NCBI GenBank assembly: GCA_048007995.1
Contig: CP180347.1
Coordinates: 289,014 to 353,013 of the forward strand
Length of the DNA: 64,000 bases
Origin: Rhodobacterales bacterium
GTDB lineage: Bacteria > Pseudomonadota > Alphaproteobacteria > Rhodobacterales > Rhodobacteraceae
Direction: 5' to 3'
Below the pieces are notes generated by a model. It made no database searches and was not told the origin of the DNA. It was given only the letters and a program-made list of their open reading frames with translations. A program made the translations under genes and the position numbers. Positions 17,110-27,993 of this stretch are shown one piece after another (position 1 is the first letter of the stretch; each line of letters opens with the position of its first letter).

Positions 17110-17186
17110 TGGTACCACCTGCTGGTCTCGAACCAGCGACCTCTTGATCCACAATCAAGCGCTCTAACCAACTGAGCTAAGGCGGC
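17110..17186 (-). tRNA. tRNA-His (GTG)
   Basis: 77-nt cloverleaf GCCGCCT...CTTGA-TTGTGGA-TCAAG...TTCGAGA...AGGTGGT-A-CCA. Confidence 0.97.
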
Positions 17187-17196
17187 ACTGGCGCCG

Positions 17197-17225
17197 GATT
17201 TAGCCGCATGACCGCATGATTGCAA
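17197..17225 (-). promoter_or_regulatory. Putative sigma70 promoter of tRNA-His (and rluD)
   Basis: TTGCAA-N17-TAAATC; the -10 lacks the -7 T. Confidence 0.6.
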
Positions 17226-17310
17226 GGGCTAGTCACGGCTTTTCGCGCGCGGCACTTGCCAAGCGATCGCGCGGCGCTGTAGGCAGGCAAAAGACAGCAA
17301 GGAACAGATC

Positions 17311-17502
17311 ATGGGTATCAACAGCGAACGCGATATCGAGGCCAATATGCAGATCGGCCCGACCGAACTGGGCATGGTGCGCATTTTCATCGAGGCCGGC
17401 GACACAGAGATCCCGATGGATTTCGAACCCGAAGAGGCCGAGGAAATCGCTGACGAGATCCGCGCCGCAGCCCAAGCCGCCCGCGCCGTCAAAAAGCGCT
17501 GA
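17311..17502 (+). CDS. Small conserved protein (DUF6324-like)
   Basis: MGINSERDIEANMQIGPT..PMDFEPEEAEEIADEIRAAA; recognised from memory of roseobacter proteins. Confidence 0.75.
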   Translation: MGINSERDIEANMQIGPTELGMVRIFIEAGDTEIPMDFEPEEAEEIADEIRAAAQAARAVKKR

Positions 17503-17947
17503 CAAAGCCCGGATCGCGCGCCACTTGTGCGCGGATCGCGGCATGGCGCGCGAATTTCTGCGTCAGCAGCTTGCGCCTTGCGGGGGGCAAAGGCCGGTCC
17601 GGCCCCATCCGCAGAATTTCGGCGTCATAGCTGTCGGCGATGATCAGGCCCGTGTCATCGGGCAGCAATTCCAGCGGAAAAGCGGCATCTACCGCCCAGA
17701 AAAACCGGTCGCACCAGTCCAGATAGCCCTGCCATTTGCGGTCGGTCTGGAAATCGGCACGACTGGATTTGCATTCGATCACCCAGATTTCACCTTTCGG
17801 CCCCAGCGCCATGACATCGACGCGCAGCCCCGGTGTCGGCACCAGCTCTTCGACGCTGACGAAATCATGACCGCGCAGATGACGGCACACGCCACGGGCC
17901 AGAGTCTGGCCGGGCAGCAAGGCGGGGGATACGAAACCAGAGGACAT
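17489..17947 (-). CDS. mmcB: MmcB-family DNA repair nuclease (PD-(D/E)XK-like)
   Basis: LARGVCRHL, RVDVMALG, IECKSSRADFQTDRKWQGYLDWCDRFFW; upstream LexA box supports the call. Confidence 0.9.
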   Translation of the reverse strand: MSSGFVSPALLPGQTLARGVCRHLRGHDFVSVEELVPTPGLRVDVMALGPKGEIWVIECKSSRADFQTDRKWQGYLDWCDRFFWAVDAAFPLELLPDDTGLIIADSYDAEILRMGPDRPLPPARRKLLTQKFARHAAIRAQVARDPGFVSAF

Positions 17948-17953
17948 GGTGCG

Positions 17954-17982
17954 ATACTGAACAATAAGTGAACAAATTGCAA
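17954..17982 (-). promoter_or_regulatory. mmcB promoter with alphaproteobacterial LexA box in the spacer
   Basis: GAAC-N7-GAAC at 17959-17973, inside TTGCAA-N17-CAGTAT, which ends 6 nt before the ATG. Confidence 0.85.
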
Positions 17983-18460: not shown

Positions 18461-18772
18461 CTAACGCCCGCGCCGCGACCCAGCGGTCACGCGGATCGGG
18501 ATCAATTGGCCGCCGGATTGGTCGTCGTCATCGTCATCCTGCGCGTCCAGCATGATCGAAATGGCAAATTGCACGCTGCCGAAAACGGTGCCGTGGAAAA
18601 ACCACAGCAGGAACACGGCCAGCCAGCCGATATCGGAATTGGCGACAAGGCTGCCAAGCCGCGCCACGTCATGCCACAGTAACAGCGCGACAAATCCTGC
18701 GGCGATTACGAATCCAACCGCGCAATGGCGCAGGTAAAGCCGCATCAGGTCCGGCTCATTATCATGTGTCAT
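18461..18772 (-). CDS. Two-helix membrane hypothetical protein
   Basis: RBS GAGGGG; LMRLYLRHCAVGF..IGWLAVFLLWFFHG..SVQFAISIM; acidic tail. Confidence 0.75.
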   Translation of the reverse strand: MTHDNEPDLMRLYLRHCAVGFVIAAGFVALLLWHDVARLGSLVANSDIGWLAVFLLWFFHGTVFGSVQFAISIMLDAQDDDDDDQSGGQLIPIRVTAGSRRGR

Positions 18773-19029
18773 GTCATCGCCCCCTCGGTCAAAAGCTAAG
18801 CCATGTGCCAAGGAATACAAGACGTGCCAATGTCGCGGGTCTTCATTCCCGTCAACCGCCCCCGCGTCTGGTCCTGTCGTGTGGCCAAGCCGCGACTGTG
18901 ATGACCTTAACCTTTGATTCATATTAAAACCGGCTAACAGCCTCAGAATGGACAGATTTCAAAATCATCTCCGTGGCGCATGCGACGCCAGAGTGTTGCT
19001 GCAATTTACCAGTGAAACAAGGAACGAGT

Positions 19030-19572: not shown

Positions 19573-20040
19573 TCAGAACGCCTCGGGATGGGCTTCGCGG
19601 GCCATATGGTCCAGCACGGCATTGACGAATTTCGGTTCCTTGCCGTCATGCGAAAACGCCTCGGCCACGGCGACAAATTCGCTGATCACGACCTTGGGCG
19701 GCGTGTCCTTGTCCAACAGCTCTGCCCCCGCCGCGCGGAACAACGCGCGCCATGTCGGGTCGATCCGCGCGATCGGCCATTTGGCCACCAATGCGCGATC
19801 GGTCATCTGGTCGATACTGGCCTGCAGATCGACGGCGCGGTCCATCATCCGGCGGAAGGTATCGACATCGCCTTCCACCAATTCGACATCGTCGATCACC
19901 TCGCCGAAACGGTGGTCTTCGAATTCGCGCACAATGCCTTCGACGGTCTGGCCGGTGGCTTCCATCTGGAACAGGGCCTGAACTGCATAAAGCCGTGCGG
20001 CGGATTTCATCTTGCGGCGCTGGTTGTTGGAAATTGTCAT
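19573..20040 (-). CDS. nusB: Transcription antitermination factor NusB
   Basis: KSAARLYAVQALFQME, WPIARID, KFVNAVLD; ATGA coupling to ribH. Confidence 0.95.
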   Translation of the reverse strand: MTISNNQRRKMKSAARLYAVQALFQMEATGQTVEGIVREFEDHRFGEVIDDVELVEGDVDTFRRMMDRAVDLQASIDQMTDRALVAKWPIARIDPTWRALFRAAGAELLDKDTPPKVVISEFVAVAEAFSHDGKEPKFVNAVLDHMAREAHPEAF

Positions 20041-20564
20041 GCGGTTGTATGACCTGTCATCAGGATGTCGCGGGTAAAGCCCACGCCTTTTTCGGCCTTG
20101 CCCCATTTGCGCGCCAGCGCCACCAGATGCAACGCCGCCGCCGCCGCCCCGCCGCCTTTGTTCATCTGTGCTGCATCCGCACGCACGACCGCCTGCGCAT
20201 AGTTTTCCACGGTCAGGATGCCGTTGCCGATACACAGGCCCTGCAACCCCAGCAATTGCAGCGCGCGGCTGCTGTCGTTGCAGACGGTGTCGTAATGCGT
20301 CGTCTCGCCCCGGATCACACAGCCAAGCGCGACATAGCCGTCAAAATCGCCCATCCGCGCGGCGATGCCGATGGCGGTGGGAATTTCCAGCGCGCCGGGG
20401 ACATGCACGATCTCATGTGTGGCACCGGCCTTTGCAATCTCGGCCAAGGCTCCGGCGATCTGGTGATCGCTGATATCTTTGTAATAGGGCGAGGCGGCGA
20501 TCAGGATCTTCACCGGCTTGTCGAACTCCGGCAGGGGCATGATATGGTGTGTGGGTCCGGCCAT
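20037..20564 (-). CDS. ribH: 6,7-dimethyl-8-ribityllumazine synthase
   Basis: VPGALEIP, ALGCVIRGETTHYD, GNGILT, NKGG. Confidence 0.95.
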   Translation of the reverse strand: MAGPTHHIMPLPEFDKPVKILIAASPYYKDISDHQIAGALAEIAKAGATHEIVHVPGALEIPTAIGIAARMGDFDGYVALGCVIRGETTHYDTVCNDSSRALQLLGLQGLCIGNGILTVENYAQAVVRADAAQMNKGGGAAAAALHLVALARKWGKAEKGVGFTRDILMTGHTTA

Positions 20565-21694
20565 CAGCCAATCTCCGAAATTTTGCGCGTGCCGACGATT
20601 TCGAGACCGTAAGCATCAAGTCCCACGACCCGCGGCTTGGGTGAATTGGTCAGCAGCGTGATGTCATGCAGGCCCAGTGCAGACAGGATCTGCGCGCCAA
20701 GGCCGTACTGGCGCAGGGTCTGGGGTGTCGCCTCTTCGCTCGGGTCCAGTTTCATATGCAGATCGCGCAGCAGCACCAATGCGCCGCGCCCTTCATCGGC
20801 GATCAGCTGCATGGCATCGCCAAATTCGTTACGCCGCCCCTTGGGGCCGACACCGACGACATCCAGCATCGGGTCCAGCGCATGCATCCGTACCAGCACG
20901 GGGTCCGGCGTGGTGATATCACCCTTGATCAGCGCGATATGTTCGGCCCCTTGGGTTTCATCGACGAAAATCCGCATCTCCCAGTCACCGCCGAACTCGG
21001 ATGTGATGGTCTGGCTGTCGCGCAACACGACCAGATTGTCGTGGCGGCGGCGATAGGCGATCAGATCGCTGATCGTGCCGATCTTCAGCCCGTGCAATTG
21101 CGCAAAGGCGACCAGATCGGGCAGACGCGCCATTTCGCCGTCTTCTTTCATGATCTCGCAGATCACGCCCGACGGGTTTAGCCCCGCCAGACGGCTGATA
21201 TCGACAGCGGCCTCGGTATGGCCGGCACGGACAAGCACACCGCCATCGCGCGCGCGCAGCGGGAAAACATGGCCCGGCGTGGCGATATCGGCCGCCCCCT
21301 TGGCTGCGTCAATCGCGACCGAGACGGTGCGCGCACGGTCGGCCGCTGAAATGCCGGTGCTGACGCCTTCGCGCGCTTCGATGCTGACGGTGAACGCTGT
21401 TTCATGGCGCGATGAATTGTTGGACGCCATCAAAGGCAGGCCCAGCGCGTCGATCCGGCTGCCGGGCAGCGACAGACAGATAAGCCCGCGCCCGTGCTTT
21501 GCCATGAAATTGATTGCGTCAGGTGTGGCCATCTGGGCGGGGATCACCAGATCGCCTTCGTTCTCACGGTCCTCGTGATCGACAAGGATGAACATCCGGC
21601 CATTGCGGGCATCATCGATGATATCCTCGATCTTGCTGATCGCATCGGACCAGTCCTGTTCAACCGGACCCGGTGTTTCGAAAGTGATGGACAT
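20564..21694 (-). CDS. ribB: DHBP synthase fused to a degenerate GTP cyclohydrolase II domain (RibBX-type)
   Basis: DHEDRENEGD, TGISAADR, PGHVFPL, RAGHTEA in the RibB domain; the C-domain (VLVRMH...YGLGAQIL) lacks the zinc-binding Cys cluster. Confidence 0.92.
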   Translation of the reverse strand: MSITFETPGPVEQDWSDAISKIEDIIDDARNGRMFILVDHEDRENEGDLVIPAQMATPDAINFMAKHGRGLICLSLPGSRIDALGLPLMASNNSSRHETAFTVSIEAREGVSTGISAADRARTVSVAIDAAKGAADIATPGHVFPLRARDGGVLVRAGHTEAAVDISRLAGLNPSGVICEIMKEDGEMARLPDLVAFAQLHGLKIGTISDLIAYRRRHDNLVVLRDSQTITSEFGGDWEMRIFVDETQGAEHIALIKGDITTPDPVLVRMHALDPMLDVVGVGPKGRRNEFGDAMQLIADEGRGALVLLRDLHMKLDPSEEATPQTLRQYGLGAQILSALGLHDITLLTNSPKPRVVGLDAYGLEIVGTRKISEIG

Positions 21695-21772
21695 AAGCGA
21701 CCCCGCAGCTTGGTTGCCTGCCAGATAGCCCAGCATCCACGGTTTGAAAAGGGGCGCAGGCCGCAGGGTGGC

Positions 21773-22327
21773 TTAAGGAAAGAACGCCTCGGCGCTGACA
21801 TAGCCTGCCAGACGGGCCGCCGCGACCCATTCCCGCTCGAAATCGGTATCACCCACCAGCACAAAGCGGTCGGCAGGCTGGCGCAACGCCTGGGTCACGC
21901 CCTCAAGATCGCGGCGCATGGCCGACCAGCTGTCGGCAAAGCGTGGTGCGGCAAAGGCGCGGTCGATCCCCGCCAGCCCCGCCAGATGCGTGGGCGTGAC
22001 AGGCCGGTGCGCAAGCCCGTGGCGGGCGGTATTGACCAGCGTTTCCAACCGCGCCGCACGGTCCGCAGGCATCGCCTGCCCGTCGCGCAGCACGCGCAAG
22101 GCGTTGCTGGAAAACAGAAACCCGATCAGGTCATGGCCGTTGCTGGCACGGATACCGGCATAGGTTTTATAAGGCAGCCCCGGTTCGGCGGCGCGTTTGA
22201 CACGCAGGCGCACGACCTCGATGGGCAGGACGGGCAGCAAATCCTGCCTTGCCTTGGTCCATGCGAATTTGCGCCAGCTATGTCCGGGTTCGACCGAAAG
22301 ACCGGAATTATGCCCGATCCCGGCCAT
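21773..22327 (-). CDS. Conserved hypothetical protein, possible degenerate HAD fold
   Basis: TGATG coupling to ribE; C-terminal PADRFVLVGDTDFEREWVAAARLAGY resembles HAD motif IV. Confidence 0.8.
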   Translation of the reverse strand: MAGIGHNSGLSVEPGHSWRKFAWTKARQDLLPVLPIEVVRLRVKRAAEPGLPYKTYAGIRASNGHDLIGFLFSSNALRVLRDGQAMPADRAARLETLVNTARHGLAHRPVTPTHLAGLAGIDRAFAAPRFADSWSAMRRDLEGVTQALRQPADRFVLVGDTDFEREWVAAARLAGYVSAEAFFP

Positions 22328-22923
22328 CAGGCGTAGTCCCGCAACCGCGCGACATAGCGGGCCATCGTGTCGATCTCGATATTGATCAGATCACCCACCG
22401 CAACATCGCCCCATGTCGTCGCGGTCTTGGTATGAGGGATGAAATTGATCCCGAAATCGCGGCCCGCAACCTCGTTCACGGTCAGCGATGTGCCGTCCAG
22501 CGCCACCGACCCTTTGGGTGCGATGAACCGCGCCAGCGCCTCTGGCGCGCGGAATGTCACGCGGGTGCTGTCACCTTCATCGCGCAGGGCCACAACCTCG
22601 GCCACGCCATCGACATGGCCCGACACGATATGCCCGCCCAATTCGTCACCCACCTTCAGCGCGCGCTCCAGGTTCAGCCTTTTGCCCACCGCCCAGCCGC
22701 TGACATTGGTGGCCCCCACGGTTTCCGCCGAAATCTGCACATCAAACCAGTTCTGTGGATCACGGCCCAATGCGATCACCGTCAGGCACACCCCGTTACA
22801 GGCAATCGACGCCCCGATGTCGATTCCTGCCACGTCATAGCCAGTGCCAATCCGCGCGCGCAGATCGCCCTGCTGGTCCAGTACCAGCACCCGCCCGATA
22901 TCGGTGACAATTCCTGTGAACAT
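22327..22923 (-). CDS. ribE: Riboflavin synthase alpha subunit
   Basis: MFTGIV start, GASIACNGVCLTV, LERALKVGDELGGHIVSGHVD, IPHT. Confidence 0.97.
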   Translation of the reverse strand: MFTGIVTDIGRVLVLDQQGDLRARIGTGYDVAGIDIGASIACNGVCLTVIALGRDPQNWFDVQISAETVGATNVSGWAVGKRLNLERALKVGDELGGHIVSGHVDGVAEVVALRDEGDSTRVTFRAPEALARFIAPKGSVALDGTSLTVNEVAGRDFGINFIPHTKTATTWGDVAVGDLINIEIDTMARYVARLRDYA

Positions 22924-23012
22924 GCGCTTTCCTTTCCGCTTGCTCCTGACCTAGCGGCTTGCAGGCGTGCAGGCAAGCAGGCGGCTTGCCGCATTACCGC
23001 CAGAATTGCCGT

Positions 23013-23048
23013 GTTAAGCTGGCGTTCAGTTTGTTCAGTCAGTTCAGT
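23013..23048. promoter_or_regulatory. CtrA-like box overlapping a triple GTTCAGT direct repeat
   Basis: GTTAA-N7-TTCA (23013-23028); GTTCAGT at 23024, 23033 and 23042 (9-bp period), ending 3 bp before the kpsS ATG. Confidence 0.45.
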
Positions 23049-23051
23049 GTT

Positions 23052-24350
23052 ATGAGTTCCCAACGCCGCTTCCTTTTCCTGCAAGGGCCGCATGGCCCGT
23101 TCTTTCGCCAGATCGCGGCGGCCCTGCGCAAATCGGGGGCCGATGTCTGGCGCGTCGGGTTGAACGCGGGCGATGCGGCTTTCTGGTGGCGCAGCCCCGG
23201 CTATCTGCCGTTCCGCGACAGCCCCGACGCATGGCCCAGCGCATTGGCCCACATCCTGCGCGACAAACAGATCACCGATATCGTCCTTTACGGCGACACC
23301 CGCCCGATCCATGCCGAGGCGGTGCGCCAGGCCCGCGCCGCCGGTCTGCGCATCCATGTCTTTGAAGAAGGCTATCTGCGCCCCTATTGGGTCACCTATG
23401 AACGCGGCGGCAGCAACGGACATTCGCAGCTACGCAGCCTCAGCATCGCTGACATGCGCGCGCATCTGGCCCAGCCGGGGCAAGACCAGCCGACGCCGCC
23501 GTCCCATTGGGGCGACATGCGCCAGCATATCTTTTACGGCGCGCTTTATCATTGGTTCGTGATGTTCCGAAACGCGCGCTATCCGCAATTCCGCCCGCAC
23601 CGCGCCCTGCCGGTGCGCACCGAAGCGCAGCTTTACACAGGCCGTCTGCTGATGATGCCGGTTATGGCGCTGCTGCGCGGGCTGGCCACCTTGCGGATCA
23701 AGGCAGGCGGCTATCCCTATCATCTGGCGCTGCTGCAACTGGAACATGATTCGAGCTTTCAGATCCATTCACCGTTCCGCGACATGGAAAGCTTCATTGA
23801 CATGGTCATCACCGGTTTTGCCAAAGGCGCACCGGCGGGCCATCACCTTGTGTTCAAGACGCATCCGCTGGAAAACGGGCGCAAACCGCTGCACCGCCTG
23901 ATCCGGCAGGCGGCGGCGGCGCAGGGCATCGCGCATCGCGTGCATTTCGTGCGCGGTGGTAAACTGGCGCGTTTGCTCAATTCCGCACTCTCGGCGGTGA
24001 CGGTCAATTCCACCGCGGGCCAGCAGGTGCTGTGGCGCGGGATTCCGTTGCGGATTTTCGGCGCCGCGGTCTATGACAAACCGCAATTCGTGTCCGACCA
24101 ACCGCTGCCCGCCTTTTTCGCAGCCCCACGCGCCCCCGACACCCAAGCCTATCGCGATTTCCGGCAATTCCTGTTGCAAACCAGTCAGGTACCCGGCGGG
24201 TTCTATTCCGCCAAGGGCCGGCGCAACCTGATCCGGCATCTGGCCCCGATGATGCTGGCGGATGTGGGTCCCTATGCCGCGCCTTGCGGCAATGATCAGG
24301 CGCGCGATCTGCAAACCGCCGCGCTGGCCAAGATACAGCGCGTGGCCTAA
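23052..24350 (+). CDS. kpsS: Capsule biosynthesis beta-Kdo transferase KpsS-like
   Basis: FLFLQGPHGPFF, VFEEGYLRPYWVT, LQLEHD, FKTHP, VTVNSTAG. Confidence 0.85.
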   Translation: MSSQRRFLFLQGPHGPFFRQIAAALRKSGADVWRVGLNAGDAAFWWRSPGYLPFRDSPDAWPSALAHILRDKQITDIVLYGDTRPIHAEAVRQARAAGLRIHVFEEGYLRPYWVTYERGGSNGHSQLRSLSIADMRAHLAQPGQDQPTPPSHWGDMRQHIFYGALYHWFVMFRNARYPQFRPHRALPVRTEAQLYTGRLLMMPVMALLRGLATLRIKAGGYPYHLALLQLEHDSSFQIHSPFRDMESFIDMVITGFAKGAPAGHHLVFKTHPLENGRKPLHRLIRQAAAAQGIAHRVHFVRGGKLARLLNSALSAVTVNSTAGQQVLWRGIPLRIFGAAVYDKPQFVSDQPLPAFFAAPRAPDTQAYRDFRQFLLQTSQVPGGFYSAKGRRNLIRHLAPMMLADVGPYAAPCGNDQARDLQTAALAKIQRVA

Positions 24351-24359
24351 CCTGCCGCA

Positions 24360-26354
24360 ATGCCGGATGAAAACCTCCAGAACCTTTATGTCTATTCGGG
24401 CGGTTTCCTGACCCAGCCCCGCATCCGGCGCATCCTGACGCTGGCGGGCTTCGACATCCGGCTTGGCGCGCCCGGACCCCACGACAATGTCGGCGTCTGG
24501 GGCCAAAGCCCGACCGCGCCACGCGGCGCGGCTGTGGCGCGGCACAAAGGTGCGGGCCTGATCCGGGTCGAGGACAGTTTTCTACGCTCGGTCCGGCCCG
24601 GACGGTCCGGTGATCTACCGATCGGGCTGAACATCGACCGGCGCGGCGTGCATTTCGACCCGACCGTGCCGTCCGATCTGGACCTGATACTTGCGCATGA
24701 TCCGCTGGACGATACCGTCCTGCTGAACCGCGCTAAGGCGGGGATCAGCGCCTTGCAGGCGGATCATCTGTCGAAATACAATTGTTTCGATCCCGCCACG
24801 CCCGTGCCAGGTGCCGGCTATGTGCTGGTCATCGACCAGACCCGCAAGGATGCGTCAATCACCGCCAGCGGTGCCGACAGCAACACGTTCCGCGAAATGC
24901 TGTTCTACGCCCAAACCGAACATCCCGACCAAAGGATCGTGATCAAGACCCATCCTGAAACCATAGCAGGCAACAAGGCGGGCTATTTCGCCGCCGCCGA
25001 TACCAACGACAGGATCAGCCTGTGTGCTGCCCCCGTCTCGCCCTGGGCGCTGCTTGCGGGGGCGATCGCGGTCTATACCGTCACATCGCAGCTGGGGTTC
25101 GAGGCGATTTTAGCAGGCCACAAACCCGTGGTTTTCGGCCAGCCATTCTATGCAGGCTGGGGGCTTACAGACGACCGCAAACCGGTCCAACGCCGCCAAC
25201 GCCGCCTGACGCGGGCGCAGCTTTTCGCGGGCGCGATGATCCTCTATCCAACTTGGTACGACCCCTACCACGACCGTCTGTGCAGCTTCGAGGAAGCGAC
25301 AGCCAGCCTGTCGGCGCTGACCCGCGCCTGGCGTGACGACCACCAGGGCTGGGTCGCGGCCGACATGCGGCTGTGGAAACGCAGCCCCTTGCAGCAGTTC
25401 TTCGGCCAATACGCGCAGGTCAGGTTTGCGCGCGGGGCCAAGGCGGCACCGCAGGCCGCACAATCCAACCGACGCCTGATGCGCTGGGCCAGCACGGATG
25501 CGCGCGACGCGGTGCTGGTCGAGGATGGTTTTCTGCGCTCGCGCGGGCTGGGCGCCGATCTGGTGGCCCCCTTGTCCTTGGTGCTGGACGATCTGGGCAT
25601 CTATTACGACGCAACACGCCCCAGCAGGCTCGAGGCGCTGATCACCGGATCACCCACACTGCCCCCCGCCGCCCGCGATCGTGCAGCGGCGCTGATCACA
25701 CGGATCAGGGCGGCGGGCCTGTCAAAATACAATCTGCAGGGCAAACCCCTGCCCGAGCTGCCCAAAGGGCGGCGCATCCTTGTGCCGGGGCAGGTCGAGG
25801 ACGACGCCAGCATCCGGCTGGGCGCAGGCGAAGTGCGTAGCAACGCAGCGCTGCTGCAAGCGGTGCGTACGGCCAACCCCGCCGCCGTGATCATCTACAA
25901 ACCGCACCCCGATGTGCGCGCAAACCTGCGGCCCGGCCATATCGCCAACGCAGGCGACTGGGCCGATCTGGTGCTGGACGACGCCGACCCGATCGCCGCC
26001 ATCCAGGCCTGCGACTGCGTCTGGACCATGACATCGCTTCTGGGGTTCGAGGCGCTCTTGCACGACCGCCCGGTCACCTGTCTTGGGATGCCGTTCTATG
26101 CCGGCTGGGGGCTGACCGATGACCGCGCGCGGCCGCTTGCACGGCGCAACAAAACACTGGACCTCACCGCGCTGGTCCATGCCACGCTGATCGCCTATCC
26201 GCGCTACCGCGATCCGGTCAGCGGCCTGCCCTGCCCGGTCGAGGTGATCGTGGACAGGCTCAGCCATGACGATATCCCGCCCGCCACGCGCCTCAACCGC
26301 GCCACAGCGAAACTGCAGGGCCTTTTTGCGAGCTTCGCGCCCTTGTGGCGTTGA
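24360..26354 (+). CDS. kpsC: Capsule biosynthesis beta-Kdo transferase KpsC-like
   Basis: Two homologous halves (VEDSFLRS / VEDGFLRS; KYN; KTHP / KPHPD; TSQLGFEA / TSLLGFEA; PFYAGWGLT twice). Confidence 0.9.
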   Translation: MPDENLQNLYVYSGGFLTQPRIRRILTLAGFDIRLGAPGPHDNVGVWGQSPTAPRGAAVARHKGAGLIRVEDSFLRSVRPGRSGDLPIGLNIDRRGVHFDPTVPSDLDLILAHDPLDDTVLLNRAKAGISALQADHLSKYNCFDPATPVPGAGYVLVIDQTRKDASITASGADSNTFREMLFYAQTEHPDQRIVIKTHPETIAGNKAGYFAAADTNDRISLCAAPVSPWALLAGAIAVYTVTSQLGFEAILAGHKPVVFGQPFYAGWGLTDDRKPVQRRQRRLTRAQLFAGAMILYPTWYDPYHDRLCSFEEATASLSALTRAWRDDHQGWVAADMRLWKRSPLQQFFGQYAQVRFARGAKAAPQAAQSNRRLMRWASTDARDAVLVEDGFLRSRGLGADLVAPLSLVLDDLGIYYDATRPSRLEALITGSPTLPPAARDRAAALITRIRAAGLSKYNLQGKPLPELPKGRRILVPGQVEDDASIRLGAGEVRSNAALLQAVRTANPAAVIIYKPHPDVRANLRPGHIANAGDWADLVLDDADPIAAIQACDCVWTMTSLLGFEALLHDRPVTCLGMPFYAGWGLTDDRARPLARRNKTLDLTALVHATLIAYPRYRDPVSGLPCPVEVIVDRLSHDDIPPATRLNRATAKLQGLFASFAPLWR

Positions 26355-26405: not shown

Positions 26406-27485
26406 CTAGACCCGCCGCCAATGCGTCATGACATCATCGCCCAGACGCGCCAGATCATGCAAGGCAAAGCGCGGCGCATCCGCCAGACGGCCAATGCCCA
26501 TCGCGGCCAGCGCAGGCGTGCCTTCGGCGCCGATGGCGCAGCCTGCGGTCATCACCACCAGATCATCGACCAGCCCAGCACCCAGCAACGACGCGGCCAA
26601 CATCCCGCCGCCTTCGCAAAACAGCCGCGTGATCCCCGCGCTTGCCAGCGCCTGCATCATCGCCTCTGGTTCAACCTGTCCTGCGCGCACGGCACAGGGC
26701 AGGCTGACAGCGCCCAGCGCCAGCCAATCGGCCACATCCGCCTCTGCCCCGTGGCAGATCCAGACCGGCGATTGGCGCGCGGTTTGCGCCAATTGGCTGG
26801 TCAGCGGCAGTTTCACAGCGCGCGATACGACGATGCGCACAGGCTGGCGGGTGATGCCCAGACCGCGCACGCTCAGCGCCGGATCATCGGCGCGCAGGGT
26901 TCCTGCGCCCACCAGCACCGCATCATGGCGCGCGCGCATCATATGCACGGCGCGGCGGGCCTCTGGCCCCGTGATCCACTGGCTTTCGCCGCTGGCAGTG
27001 GCGATCCGGCCATCCAGCGTGCCAGCCAGCTTCAGCGTCACAAAAGGCCGCGCTGCCGTGATCCGGGACAAAAACCCCGCATGATCCGCGCGGGCCTGAT
27101 CGGCCAGCAGCCCCGTTTCCACGACGATCCCCGCCTGTTCCAGCATCGCGATGCCGCGACCGGCCACGCGCGGATCGGGATCACCCACGGCGATCACCAC
27201 ACGCGCCACGCCAGCGGCAATCAGCGCCTCGGCGCAGGGCGGGGTCTTGCCGTGATGCGCACAGGGTTCCAGCGTGACATAGACCGTTGCACCGCGCGCA
27301 TCCTCCCCGGCTTGCGCCAAGGCGACAGTTTCGGCATGCGGGCGCCCGCCATCCTGTGTCCAGCCGCGCCCGACGATGCGGCCATAGGTCACGATCACGC
27401 AGCCCACCGCCGGATTGGGCCAGACACGGCCCATCCCGCGCCGCCCCAGTTGCAGCGCCAGTGCCATGTAGCGGGCGTCGGTCAC
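26406..27485 (-). CDS. ribD: Riboflavin deaminase/reductase RibD
   Basis: [40 protein letters not shown]; GTGA coupling to nrdR. Confidence 0.96.
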
Positions 27486-27952
27486 TCGTCTTCTTTGGCT
27501 GCTTGCGGGCGCAATTCGCTGACGAATTTATCGAAATCATCCGCCGCCTGAAAGTTCTTGTAAACGCTGGCAAAGCGCACATAGGCGACCGTGTCGATCC
27601 TTGCCAGGCTTTCCATCACGATCTCGCCAATCGTGCCAGACGGGATGTCGGTATCGCCCAGACTTTCTAGCCTGCGCACGATGCCGCTGATCATCTGATC
27701 CATCCGTTCTGGTTCAACAGGGCGTTTTTGCAGCGCGATCCGGATCGAGCGTTCCAGCTTCTGGCGGTCGAAATCCTCGCGCCGCCCATTGGATTTGATC
27801 ACCACCAGATCACGCAATTGCACGCGTTCATAGGTGGTGAAACGCCCGCCACAGGCCGGACAAAACCGCCTGCGCCGGATCGCCACATGGTCCTCGGCGG
27901 GACGGGAATCCTTGACCTGGGTATCGACATTTCCGCAAAAAGGGCAACGCAT
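27482..27952 (-). CDS. nrdR: Ribonucleotide reductase repressor NrdR
   Basis: [38 protein letters not shown]. Confidence 0.97.
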
Positions 27953-27993
27953 AAGGGGGTCCTTTGGGTCTATGTGTTGGGGCAAGACCCCAC

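What the first reader, a model, noticed from the sequence alone, without database searches (positions are those of the whole stretch)
21773..22327. Uncharacterised HAD-like protein coupled to riboflavin synthase: candidate for the pathway phosphatase step, or a pseudoenzyme
Seen: its ATG overlaps the ribE stop (TGATG) and it lies between ribE and ribB. The C-terminus PADRFVLVGDTDFEREWVAAARLAGY has the shape of HAD motif IV. DLIGFLFSSNAL sits where motif I (hhhFDxDGTL) would be, but has no Asp. A separate N-terminal region begins MAGIGHNS. Established: the ribityl-pyrimidine 5'-phosphate phosphatase step between RibD and RibH is performed by HAD enzymes in several bacteria (for example E. coli YigB/YbjI) and no such gene is usually found in rib operons. 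Inference: this is either an atypical phosphatase or, given the lost nucleophile, a flavin- or intermediate-binding scaffold or regulator for the rib enzymes.
Basis: partly seen in the sequence, partly recalled or inferred. Interest (0 to 1): 0.6.

Follow-up and report, generated by a model that had tools for sequence, protein, structure and literature searches.

The report
Dead HAD-fold protein inside riboflavin operon
The small gene wedged between two riboflavin-synthesis genes encodes a real, conserved protein with the fold of a HAD phosphatase but without that enzyme's catalytic residues, joined to an unknown basic domain, so it is probably a non-catalytic helper rather than the pathway's missing phosphatase.

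Summary
A 184-aa ORF (21773-22327, minus strand) starts on the last base of the ribE stop codon and lies 36 nt upstream of ribBA.

It has two parts:
- Residues 1-65 form a strongly basic three-helix module with an invariant N-terminal GHNxGP motif. This module has no Pfam model and no convincing fold match. It also occurs alone as 70-110-aa proteins in other Alphaproteobacteria.
- Residues 66-184 form a capless HAD Rossmannoid core. The AF2 model has pLDDT 93, and all 50 best structural matches are HAD proteins (Z 8.4-10.3).

Profile alignment puts Ser73 at the nucleophile Asp position and Asn75 at Asp+2. The motif II and III positions are not conserved. Motif IV survives as G-(mostly D/E)-x-x-x-E. 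No family member examined has Asp at the nucleophile position. It therefore looks like a HAD-derived pseudoenzyme, and canonical ARPP-phosphatase chemistry is very unlikely.

About 38% of sampled Rhodobacteraceae genera carry it, and 66 of 75 have it beside rib genes. All rib-linked copies form one clade with the SxN signature, so the linkage is essentially one event. The gene was lost repeatedly. Relatives outside the clade (TxD/E type, other families) are not rib-linked. Its presence does not track FMN-riboswitch absence.

The function is unknown. The best guess is a non-catalytic binding or regulatory accessory of the rib operon. Interest is moderate.

The parts
21773..22327 (-). Gene X: 184-aa two-domain protein (P0001), including its stop codon
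   Evidence: ORF and translation. 1152 homologue clusters, all named 'hypothetical protein'. AF2 pLDDT 93.2.
22133..22327 (-). N-terminal basic three-helix module (residues 1-65; helices 16-30, 36-47, 53-63)
   Evidence: One search gives the secondary structure. In alignment A2, G5 H6 N7 G9 W23 R42 A46 G50 Y53 G64 are invariant. 30 of 65 positions are >=90% conserved across 30 genera. Net charge averages +7. There is no Pfam, NCBIfam or PHROG hit. The best fold match is only Z 3.2.
22298..22315 (-). Invariant N-terminal GHNxGP motif (GHNSGL here, residues 5-10)
   Evidence: The first 10 residues have low pLDDT (52), so the motif is probably flexible.
21776..22132 (-). Capless HAD-type Rossmannoid core (residues 66-184; strands 69-73, 101-106, 123-126, 155-159, 175-178)
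   Evidence: In the VIA-align wide search all top 50 chains are HAD proteins, Z 8.4-10.3, 102-122 residues aligned, mostly to model residues 65-184. Foldseek ranks mainly KdsC/YrbI, GmhB and T4 PNKP phosphatases highest, E 4e-3 to 4e-2. hhalign against HAD_2 gives E 2.7e-4 to 2.9e-4.
22097..22117 (-). Degenerate HAD motif I (L71-F72-S73-S74-N75-A76-L77): Ser at the nucleophile Asp position, Asn at Asp+2
   Evidence: hhalign with the cap columns removed aligns LFSsNAL to lFDxDGT. Among 63 rib-linked copies, S73 occurs in 62 and N75 in all 63.
21836..21865 (-). Retained HAD motif IV region (F155-V-L-V-G159-D160-T-D-F-E164), of the form G(D/E)xxxE
   Evidence: It aligns to IGDsxxD of HAD_2. E164 occurs in 62 of 63 rib-linked copies. 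Position 160 is D in 38, E in 12 and A in 10.
22327..22923 (-). ribE (riboflavin synthase); its stop codon overlaps the X start by one base
   Evidence: Pfam Lum_binding, E 3e-46; sequence.
20564..21736 (-). ribBA (DHBP synthase / GTP cyclohydrolase II), 36 nt downstream of the X stop
   Evidence: Pfam PF00926 and PF00925.
20037..20564 (-). ribH (lumazine synthase)
   Evidence: Pfam DMRL_synthase, E 1.4e-35.
19573..20235 (-). nusB. This is the ORF as listed; the true start is probably near the ribH stop.
   Evidence: Pfam NusB, E 5.7e-25, residues 79-213 of the listed ORF.
26406..27985 (-). nrdR-ribD, the upstream part of the ancestral rib cluster, now separated from ribE by two plus-strand capsule genes
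   Evidence: Pfam RibD_C plus deaminase; ATP-cone plus Zn_ribbon_NrdR.
22924..23051 (.). 128-bp divergent intergenic region upstream of ribE. It probably holds the promoter for ribE-X-ribBA-ribH-nusB and carries three tandem ACTGAAC repeats at 23024-23048.
   Evidence: Sequence; repeat search.

Best explanation
Gene X encodes a two-domain protein of an unannotated alphaproteobacterial family. The N-terminal part is a highly conserved, basic three-helix module with a flexible invariant GHNxGP tip. The C-terminal part is a capless HAD-fold domain that has lost the HAD catalytic machinery: Ser/Thr replaces the nucleophile Asp, and no motif II Ser/Thr or motif III Lys is conserved. An acidic motif IV remnant survives. 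In one clade of Rhodobacteraceae the gene sits between ribE and ribBA and is probably co-transcribed and translationally coupled with ribE. This clade has a fixed F-S-x-N-A-L pocket signature. The most likely role (inferred, not shown) is a non-catalytic accessory of the riboflavin operon. In this reading the degenerate HAD pocket binds a ligand or partner, and the N-module provides the conserved interaction with a protein or nucleic acid. It is not the canonical ARPP phosphatase and it is dispensable for riboflavin synthesis.
For: - Fold: AF2 pLDDT 93.2 and pTM 0.82. All 50 best VIA matches are HAD proteins, Z 8.4-10.3. Foldseek's best hits are mainly KdsC, GmhB and PNKP phosphatases. hhalign against a HAD_2 profile gives E about 3e-4 and aligns motifs I and IV in register. 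A distant homologue gives a weak PF00702 hit over motif IV.
- Lost catalysis: S73 and N75 sit at the Asp and Asp+2 positions. The motif II and III positions are variable. No member examined has Asp at the nucleophile position.
- Operon membership: there is a one-base stop/start overlap with ribE. 66 of 75 X-bearing genera have same-strand rib genes adjacent, and ribE usually ends within about 30 nt of the X start.
- Constraint: 46% of N-module positions are >=90% conserved, against 13% of core positions. The conserved core positions include the old active-site motifs I and IV (S73, N75, A76, L77, G159, E164).
- Dispensability: 124 of 201 sampled genera lack X. In 4 of 10 such genomes checked, ribE directly abuts ribBA. 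X-plus and X-minus genomes interleave on a RibE tree.
Against: - No direct evidence links the protein to flavin metabolism.
- All rib-linked copies form one clade (SH-aLRT 85), so the synteny is one historical event and not independent replication.
- The TxD/E-type copies in six Rhodobacteraceae genera and the homologues in other families show no rib linkage and no other conserved neighbour.
- The most conserved part, the N-module, also exists as a stand-alone protein in lineages where it has no rib context. This points to a more general function.
Confidence: 0.55

Rival explanations
1. Hitch-hiker. X has a function unrelated to riboflavin, driven by its conserved basic N-module (for example nucleic-acid or hub-protein binding). 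It landed once between ribE and ribBA in a Rhodobacteraceae ancestor and has stayed there because operon-internal genes are rarely moved.
For: Rib linkage maps to a single clade. Homologues outside it are not rib-linked in 13 loci from other families and in 6 TxD/E-type loci. The N-module is the most constrained part and occurs alone elsewhere. X has been lost repeatedly without loss of the rib genes. The ribE-ribBA junction accepts other insertions in relatives.
Against: The tight stop/start coupling with ribE is kept in most of the 66 linked genera. The switch of the pocket signature from TxD/E to a nearly invariant SxN coincides with entry into the operon. This suggests specialisation rather than neutral residence. 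Only about 3 of 66 SxN copies have left the operon.
Confidence: 0.3
2. Atypical active enzyme. X still dephosphorylates ARPP or FMN, or hydrolyses another substrate. It would use non-canonical residues such as Ser73 as nucleophile, helped by the invariant His6 and Asp66, or Mg bound by D/E160 and E164.
For: In the rib-linked clade S73, N75, E164, D66 and H6 are nearly invariant, and 160 is mostly D or E. The acidic motif IV, which binds Mg in HADs, is retained. The ARPP phosphatase step is carried out by HADs encoded outside rib operons in several organisms, and its identity varies (PMC13151069, PMC12051542).
Against: From my own knowledge, every characterised catalytic HAD uses an Asp nucleophile. 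Here no member has Asp at that position. Motif II Ser/Thr and motif III Lys are also not conserved. 62% of sampled genera of the family lack X. The genome holds canonical HAD_2 proteins elsewhere that could do the step. Whether His6 or Asp66 reach the pocket could not be checked.
Confidence: 0.1
3. Protein regulator that replaces the FMN riboswitch. The HAD-like domain senses a flavin or intermediate, and the basic N-module binds DNA or RNA to control rib expression.
For: The complete genome has no FMN riboswitch. The N-module is strongly basic. Its weak best fold matches are ribbon-helix-helix DNA binders. The ribE upstream region carries three tandem ACTGAAC repeats.
Against: FMN riboswitch presence does not anticorrelate with X: 14 of 40 X-plus genomes against 10-11 of 40 X-minus genomes. 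The fold matches at Z<=3.2 are at noise level. The ACTGAAC repeats are absent from every other locus fetched. Stand-alone N-modules have no conserved target neighbourhood.
Confidence: 0.05

Closest known systems
HAD-superfamily phosphatases: capless or small-cap forms (KdsC/YrbI, GmhB, MDP-1) and subfamily IA enzymes, including YigB-like 3VAY
   Same: They share the Rossmannoid alpha/beta core: Z 8.4-10.3 over residues 65-184, with 3vay at Z 9.7 and 2gmw at Z 8.8. Motif IV G(D/E)xxxE and the hydrophobic strand before motif I align in register.
   Different: X has Ser73 and Asn75 instead of the DxD nucleophile and acid. It has no conserved motif II Ser/Thr or motif III Lys, and no cap. It carries an extra 65-residue N-terminal module. 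No Pfam HAD model detects it.
Known ARPP (ARAPDP) phosphatases of riboflavin synthesis: E. coli YigB/YbjI, B. subtilis YcsE/YwtE/YitU, the B. thetaiotaomicron and Arabidopsis HADs, and A. aeolicus HFP/IMP
   Same: Most are HAD-fold proteins (PMC13151069). X is HAD-fold and, unlike them, sits inside a rib operon.
   Different: Those enzymes are catalytically intact and are encoded outside rib operons. X lacks the catalytic residues. The A. aeolicus enzymes have other folds (PMC12051542).
Catalytically inactive HAD-like domains used as scaffolds, for example the C-terminal KdsC-like domain of murine CMP-sialic acid synthetase (PDB 3ewi)
   Same: 3ewi is among the Foldseek matches (E 4.2e-2, TM about 0.42-0.47). 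From memory, that domain is an inactive HAD that serves as an oligomerisation platform. This is the kind of role proposed here.
   Different: There is no sequence relationship beyond the fold. The protein context (fusion to a nucleotidyltransferase) and the organism differ. The scaffold role of X is untested.
RibT, the GNAT acetyltransferase encoded in the B. subtilis rib operon
   Same: It is a non-essential accessory gene embedded in a riboflavin operon. Its deletion lowers but does not abolish riboflavin production (PMC13151069).
   Different: The fold and chemistry are unrelated. RibT is an active acetyltransferase acting on lumazine synthase.

Membership tests
HAD superfamily (fold level) | Rossmannoid alpha/beta core similar to solved HAD structures | tested here: met
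   All 50 top VIA matches are HAD proteins, Z 8.4-10.3, 102-122 residues aligned. Foldseek's top hits are mainly KdsC, GmhB and PNKP.
HAD superfamily (catalytic members) | Motif I DxD, with the Asp nucleophile at the end of strand 1 | tested here: not met
   F72-S73-S74-N75 aligns to F-D-x-D. Among 63 rib-linked copies S73 occurs in 62 and N75 in 63. Other subfamilies have T, A or P at this position.
HAD superfamily (catalytic members) | Motif II Ser/Thr at the end of strand 2 | tested here: not met
   The aligned position (about R108) varies across 30 genera (A, G, K, P, Q, R or S). The alignment confidence there is modest.
HAD superfamily (catalytic members) | Motif III Lys/Arg before strand 4 | tested here: inconclusive
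   The aligned position (about A131) is not among the positions conserved at >=90%. R138 is 73% conserved one helical turn later. This part of the hhalign alignment is low-confidence.
HAD superfamily (catalytic members) | Motif IV acidic residues (GDxxxD or DD) after strand 4 | tested here: met
   G159-D160-T-D-F-E164 aligns to IGDsxxD. E164 occurs in 62 of 63 copies. Position 160 is D or E in 50 of 63.
HAD superfamily | Squiggle and flap elements after strand 1 | not testable with these tools
   A 14-residue coil (74-87) follows strand 1.
HAD superfamily | Detection by curated HAD sequence models (Pfam PF00702, PF13419 and others) | tested here: not met
   X gives no Pfam or NCBIfam hit at E<=1. 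There is only a sub-threshold PF00702 hit (E 0.054) in a distant homologue.
ARPP (ARAPDP) phosphatase of riboflavin biosynthesis | Phosphatase activity on 5-amino-6-ribitylamino-uracil 5'-phosphate | not testable with these tools
   This needs an enzyme assay. Loss of the catalytic residues argues against it.
ARPP (ARAPDP) phosphatase of riboflavin biosynthesis | Sequence-level relationship to a characterised ARPP phosphatase (YigB or YbjI type) | tested here: inconclusive
   No PDB sequence hit to any HAD was found. The fold match to YigB-like 3vay (Z 9.7) is tied with dozens of other HADs.

The most novel reading that the evidence does not exclude
X is a metabolite-sensing regulator or chaperone of riboflavin synthesis in roseobacters. 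The HAD-derived pocket (S73/N75/E164) would have been repurposed to bind a phosphorylated or reactive pathway intermediate (ARPP or 5-A-RU) or FMN. The basic GHNxGP module would relay this to a Rib enzyme or to nucleic acid. This would give protein-level control of the pathway in organisms such as this one that have no FMN riboswitch.
Probability: 0.12. Interest if true: 0.7.

Novelty: new variant of a known kind. Interest (0 to 1): 0.45.

Why it matters
Riboflavin synthesis is regarded as fully mapped except for the dephosphorylation step. Accessory genes inside rib operons, such as RibT, are only now getting functions. Here a conserved, unannotated protein is translationally coupled to riboflavin synthase across at least 60 genera of abundant marine Rhodobacteraceae. 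It is a HAD fold with a remodelled but conserved pocket, joined to an unknown domain that also occurs on its own in other Alphaproteobacteria. If it binds a pathway intermediate or a Rib enzyme, it would reveal a new layer of control or intermediate handling. If it does not, it is still a clear case of a HAD pseudoenzyme and defines a new small domain (GHNxGP). In either case the annotation 'candidate pathway phosphatase' should not be propagated.

Tried and rejected
- Pfam, NCBIfam and PHROGs scans of X and of eight homologues gave no family.
- PDB sequence searches with the single sequence and with the profile gave only chance hits.
- The ESM Atlas returned only unnamed clusters for the whole protein and nothing usable for residues 1-66.
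- The N-module was folded alone (pLDDT 77) and searched against 48,161 chains. The best Z was 3.2, from ribbon-helix-helix-like two-helix matches, which I treat as noise.
- A literature search for the GHNGGP or GIGHN motif found nothing relevant.
- A search for longer fused forms found only one 633-aa protein (X N-half plus RibBA) and one 452-aa protein (N-module plus DHBP synthase). Each is a single record and is probably a frameshift or read-through.
- A search for conserved neighbours of homologues in other families found only unrelated ABC-ATPase paralogues. The nine non-rib Rhodobacteraceae loci shared no neighbour either.
- The idea that X replaces the FMN riboswitch was rejected, because riboswitch presence is similar in X-plus and X-minus genomes.
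- A plasmid or phage origin was rejected: there were no hits except one plasmid copy of the short module.
- A weak own-genome hit (L050) turned out to be a chance match to an unrelated, non-HAD ORF that I did not scan.
- A KdsC profile for a cap-free alignment could not be built, because TIGR01670 matched only 1 of 41 genomes. I removed the cap columns from the HAD_2 alignment instead.

Full report
**1. What is there**

The minus strand of the window carries, in order:
- nrdR (27985-27482) and ribD (27485-26406);
- two plus-strand Capsule_synth genes (about 23052-24350 and 24360-26354);
- ribE (22923-22327), the ORF in question (22327-21773, called X here), ribBA (21736-20564), ribH (20564-20037) and nusB.

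The ATG of X shares base 22327 with the TGA of ribE. The X stop lies 36 nt before the ribBA start. X is 184 aa (P0001). It gives no hit in Pfam, NCBIfam, PHROGs or PDB sequences.

X is a real gene. It has 1152 clusters of homologues at E<=1e-3, every named one 'hypothetical protein'. The nearest are from Yoonia, Loktanella and Cognatiyoonia. More distant ones come from Celeribacter, Paenirhodobacter and Amylibacter. An exhaustive HMMER scan found 262 representatives at 50% identity, and full-length members are 180-200 aa.

**2. Architecture**

An AF2 model built on a 47-sequence alignment is confident (pLDDT 93.2, pTM 0.82). It shows a coil at 1-15 and three helices (16-30, 36-47, 53-63). These are followed by a five-stranded alpha/beta domain covering residues 66-184.

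A Foldseek-independent structural search of 48,161 PDB representatives returned only HAD-superfamily proteins in its top 50. Z was 8.4-10.3 with 102-122 residues aligned. Most alignments start at model residues 65-67 and at the first residues of the HAD chains. Foldseek's best hits are mainly capless or small-cap HADs: KdsC/YrbI, GmhB and the T4 PNKP phosphatase domain. E-values were 4e-3 to 4e-2 and TM about 0.4-0.45.

I built a HAD_2 profile from 27 alphaproteobacterial PF13419 matches. It aligns to the X family at E 2.9e-4 over the helix, strand 4, motif IV, helix and strand 5. With the C1-cap columns removed it aligns end to end at E 2.7e-4. A distant homologue (L006) gives a sub-threshold PF00702 hit over the same region.

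**3. Catalytic motifs**

The register gives the following.
- Motif I: L71-F72-S73-S74-N75-A76-L77 pairs with l-F-D-x-D-G-T. Ser73 occupies the nucleophile position and Asn75 the Asp+2 position. The start offsets of several structural alignments fit the same register, if the recalled numbering of those enzymes' nucleophile Asp is right (an inference from memory).
- Motif II: the Thr pairs with a variable position, about R108.
- Motif III: the Lys pairs with a variable position, about A131, in a low-confidence stretch.
- Motif IV: it is retained as G159-D160-T-D-F-E164.

Across 63 rib-linked copies, S73 occurs in 62, N75 in 63 and E164 in 62. Position 160 is D in 38, E in 12 and A in 10. No family member examined has Asp at the nucleophile position. 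The alternatives are Thr in a sister group and Ala or Pro in other families. Canonical phospho-aspartyl chemistry is therefore not available. X is best described as a HAD-derived pseudoenzyme with a remodelled but conserved pocket.

**4. The N-terminal module**

This is the most constrained part. Across 30 genera, 30 of its 65 positions are >=90% conserved, against 16 of 119 in the core. G5, H6, N7, G9, W23, R42, A46, G50, Y53 and G64 are invariant even when homologues from other families are included. Its net charge averages +7 (range +4 to +14), whereas the core is near neutral.

The module occurs on its own as 70-110-aa proteins. They end shortly after the third helix and are found in several other alphaproteobacterial families, including records named Rhodospirillales and Thalassobaculales. 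All are unannotated and have no Pfam domain. Folded alone it gives pLDDT 77, and its best structural match has Z 3.2, which is noise level. It is an undescribed domain.

**5. Distribution and synteny**

X was found in 77 of 201 sampled genera of the family, one of them a marginal match (E 3e-4). At class level it was found in 20 of 301 genomes, and most matches outside the family covered only the N-module.

I examined 75 X-bearing loci from other genera.
- 66 have rib genes on the same strand next to X. This is nearly always ribE upstream, usually ending within about 30 nt of the X start, and ribBA downstream.
- 9 have no rib gene within 1.5-2.5 kb. These nine share no other neighbour.

Thirteen loci from other families have no rib gene within 6 kb and no conserved neighbour. 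The only recurrent neighbours were unrelated ABC-ATPase paralogues.

The pocket signature tracks the context. All 63 rib-linked copies that could be aligned carry S-x-N, with one Pro exception. Six of the nine unlinked copies carry T-x-(D/E), which is closer to the HAD consensus. The other three carry S-x-N.

On a tree of X rooted with the other families, the 66 SxN copies form one clade (SH-aLRT 85). The TxD/E copies branch below it. Rib linkage and the SxN switch therefore go back to one ancestral event, with two later escapes. The synteny is deep but it is not independent replication.

**6. Dispensability**

In ten X-lacking genomes of the family (98-100% complete), ribE is directly followed by ribBA in four. 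In the other six it is followed by other DNA. On a RibE tree the X-plus and X-minus genomes interleave, and well-supported branches force at least three changes. X has therefore been lost (or gained) repeatedly while the rib genes stayed. The genome also has five canonical HAD_2 matches elsewhere that could carry out the ARPP step.

**7. Regulation**

Neither the window nor the whole 3.17-Mb genome has an FMN riboswitch. In the family the riboswitch is present in 14 of 40 X-plus genomes and in 10-11 of 40 X-minus genomes. Where it could be checked, it lies away from the X locus. X is thus not a general substitute for the riboswitch.

The 128-bp region upstream of ribE carries three tandem ACTGAAC repeats. 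They are not seen in any other locus fetched.

**8. Literature**

Reviews and recent work confirm three points. The ARPP (ARAPDP) phosphatases known so far are promiscuous HADs in E. coli, B. subtilis, B. thetaiotaomicron and Arabidopsis. In A. aeolicus the known ones are a histidine-family phosphatase and an inositol monophosphatase. The step is redundant, and in the operon example given (B. subtilis) the phosphatase lies outside the rib operon (PMC13151069, PMC12051542). RibT is the precedent for a non-essential accessory gene in a rib operon (PMC13151069). I found no paper on this family or on its motif.

**9. Reading**

Shown:
- X is a real gene, probably co-transcribed with the rib genes.
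- It has a HAD fold and has lost the catalytic residues.
- It carries a novel, conserved N-module.
- The rib linkage has a single origin, and the gene has been lost repeatedly.

Inferred:
- It acts without catalysis, as a binding, regulatory or scaffold accessory of the operon.
- The SxN pocket is adapted to that context.

The main rival is that X is a passenger with an N-module-driven function unrelated to flavins. An atypical hydrolase mechanism is unlikely but not excluded.

**10. Verdict**

X is a new variant within the HAD superfamily. Interest is moderate because the function remains open.

Noticed in passing
window 22959-26354 (+): Two Capsule_synth (KpsS/KpsC-like, PF05159) genes on the opposite strand sit between ribD and ribE. 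They split the ancestral nrdR-ribD-ribE cluster. The first probably starts at the ATG near 23052, not at the listed TTG at 22959.
   Followed up: partly
window 23024-23048: Three tandem ACTGAAC repeats (9-bp period) lie in the 128-bp divergent region between ribE and the capsule gene. 0.11 matches are expected by chance. They are absent from all other loci fetched. They may be an operator for either transcription unit.
   Followed up: partly
whole genome G000 (3.17 Mb, 1 contig): No FMN riboswitch (RF00050) occurs anywhere in this complete genome. In the family only about 30% of 80 genomes have one, and where checked it lies away from the main rib operon.
   Followed up: yes
L005, L007, L012, L015, L016, L017 (other alphaproteobacterial families): Stand-alone 70-120-aa proteins consist only of the GHNxGP three-helix module and end ...(L/M)(D/E)(R/K)G..L. 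They have no Pfam model, no annotation and no conserved neighbours.
   Followed up: partly
L128, L136, L148, L151, L161, L163 (Rhodobacteraceae): A sister subgroup of X carries F-T-x-(D/E)-G/A at the motif I position. It retains Asp+2 and lies outside rib operons in varied contexts. These genomes have no SxN copy.
   Followed up: partly
P0274 (633 aa) and P0228 (452 aa), metagenome proteins: These are apparent fusions of the N-terminal half of X with RibBA or DHBP synthase. Each is a single record and is probably a frameshift or read-through rather than a true fusion.
   Followed up: no
L035 and L028: Two variant operon orders were seen. In L035, X is followed directly by ribH. In L028, X is preceded by a divergently oriented ribD, with no ribE hit between them.
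   Followed up: no
window 17216-17971 (+) and 18461-18922 (-): Two ORFs downstream of nusB (251 and 153 aa) have no Pfam family. A tRNA lies at 17113-17186 (-).
   Followed up: no
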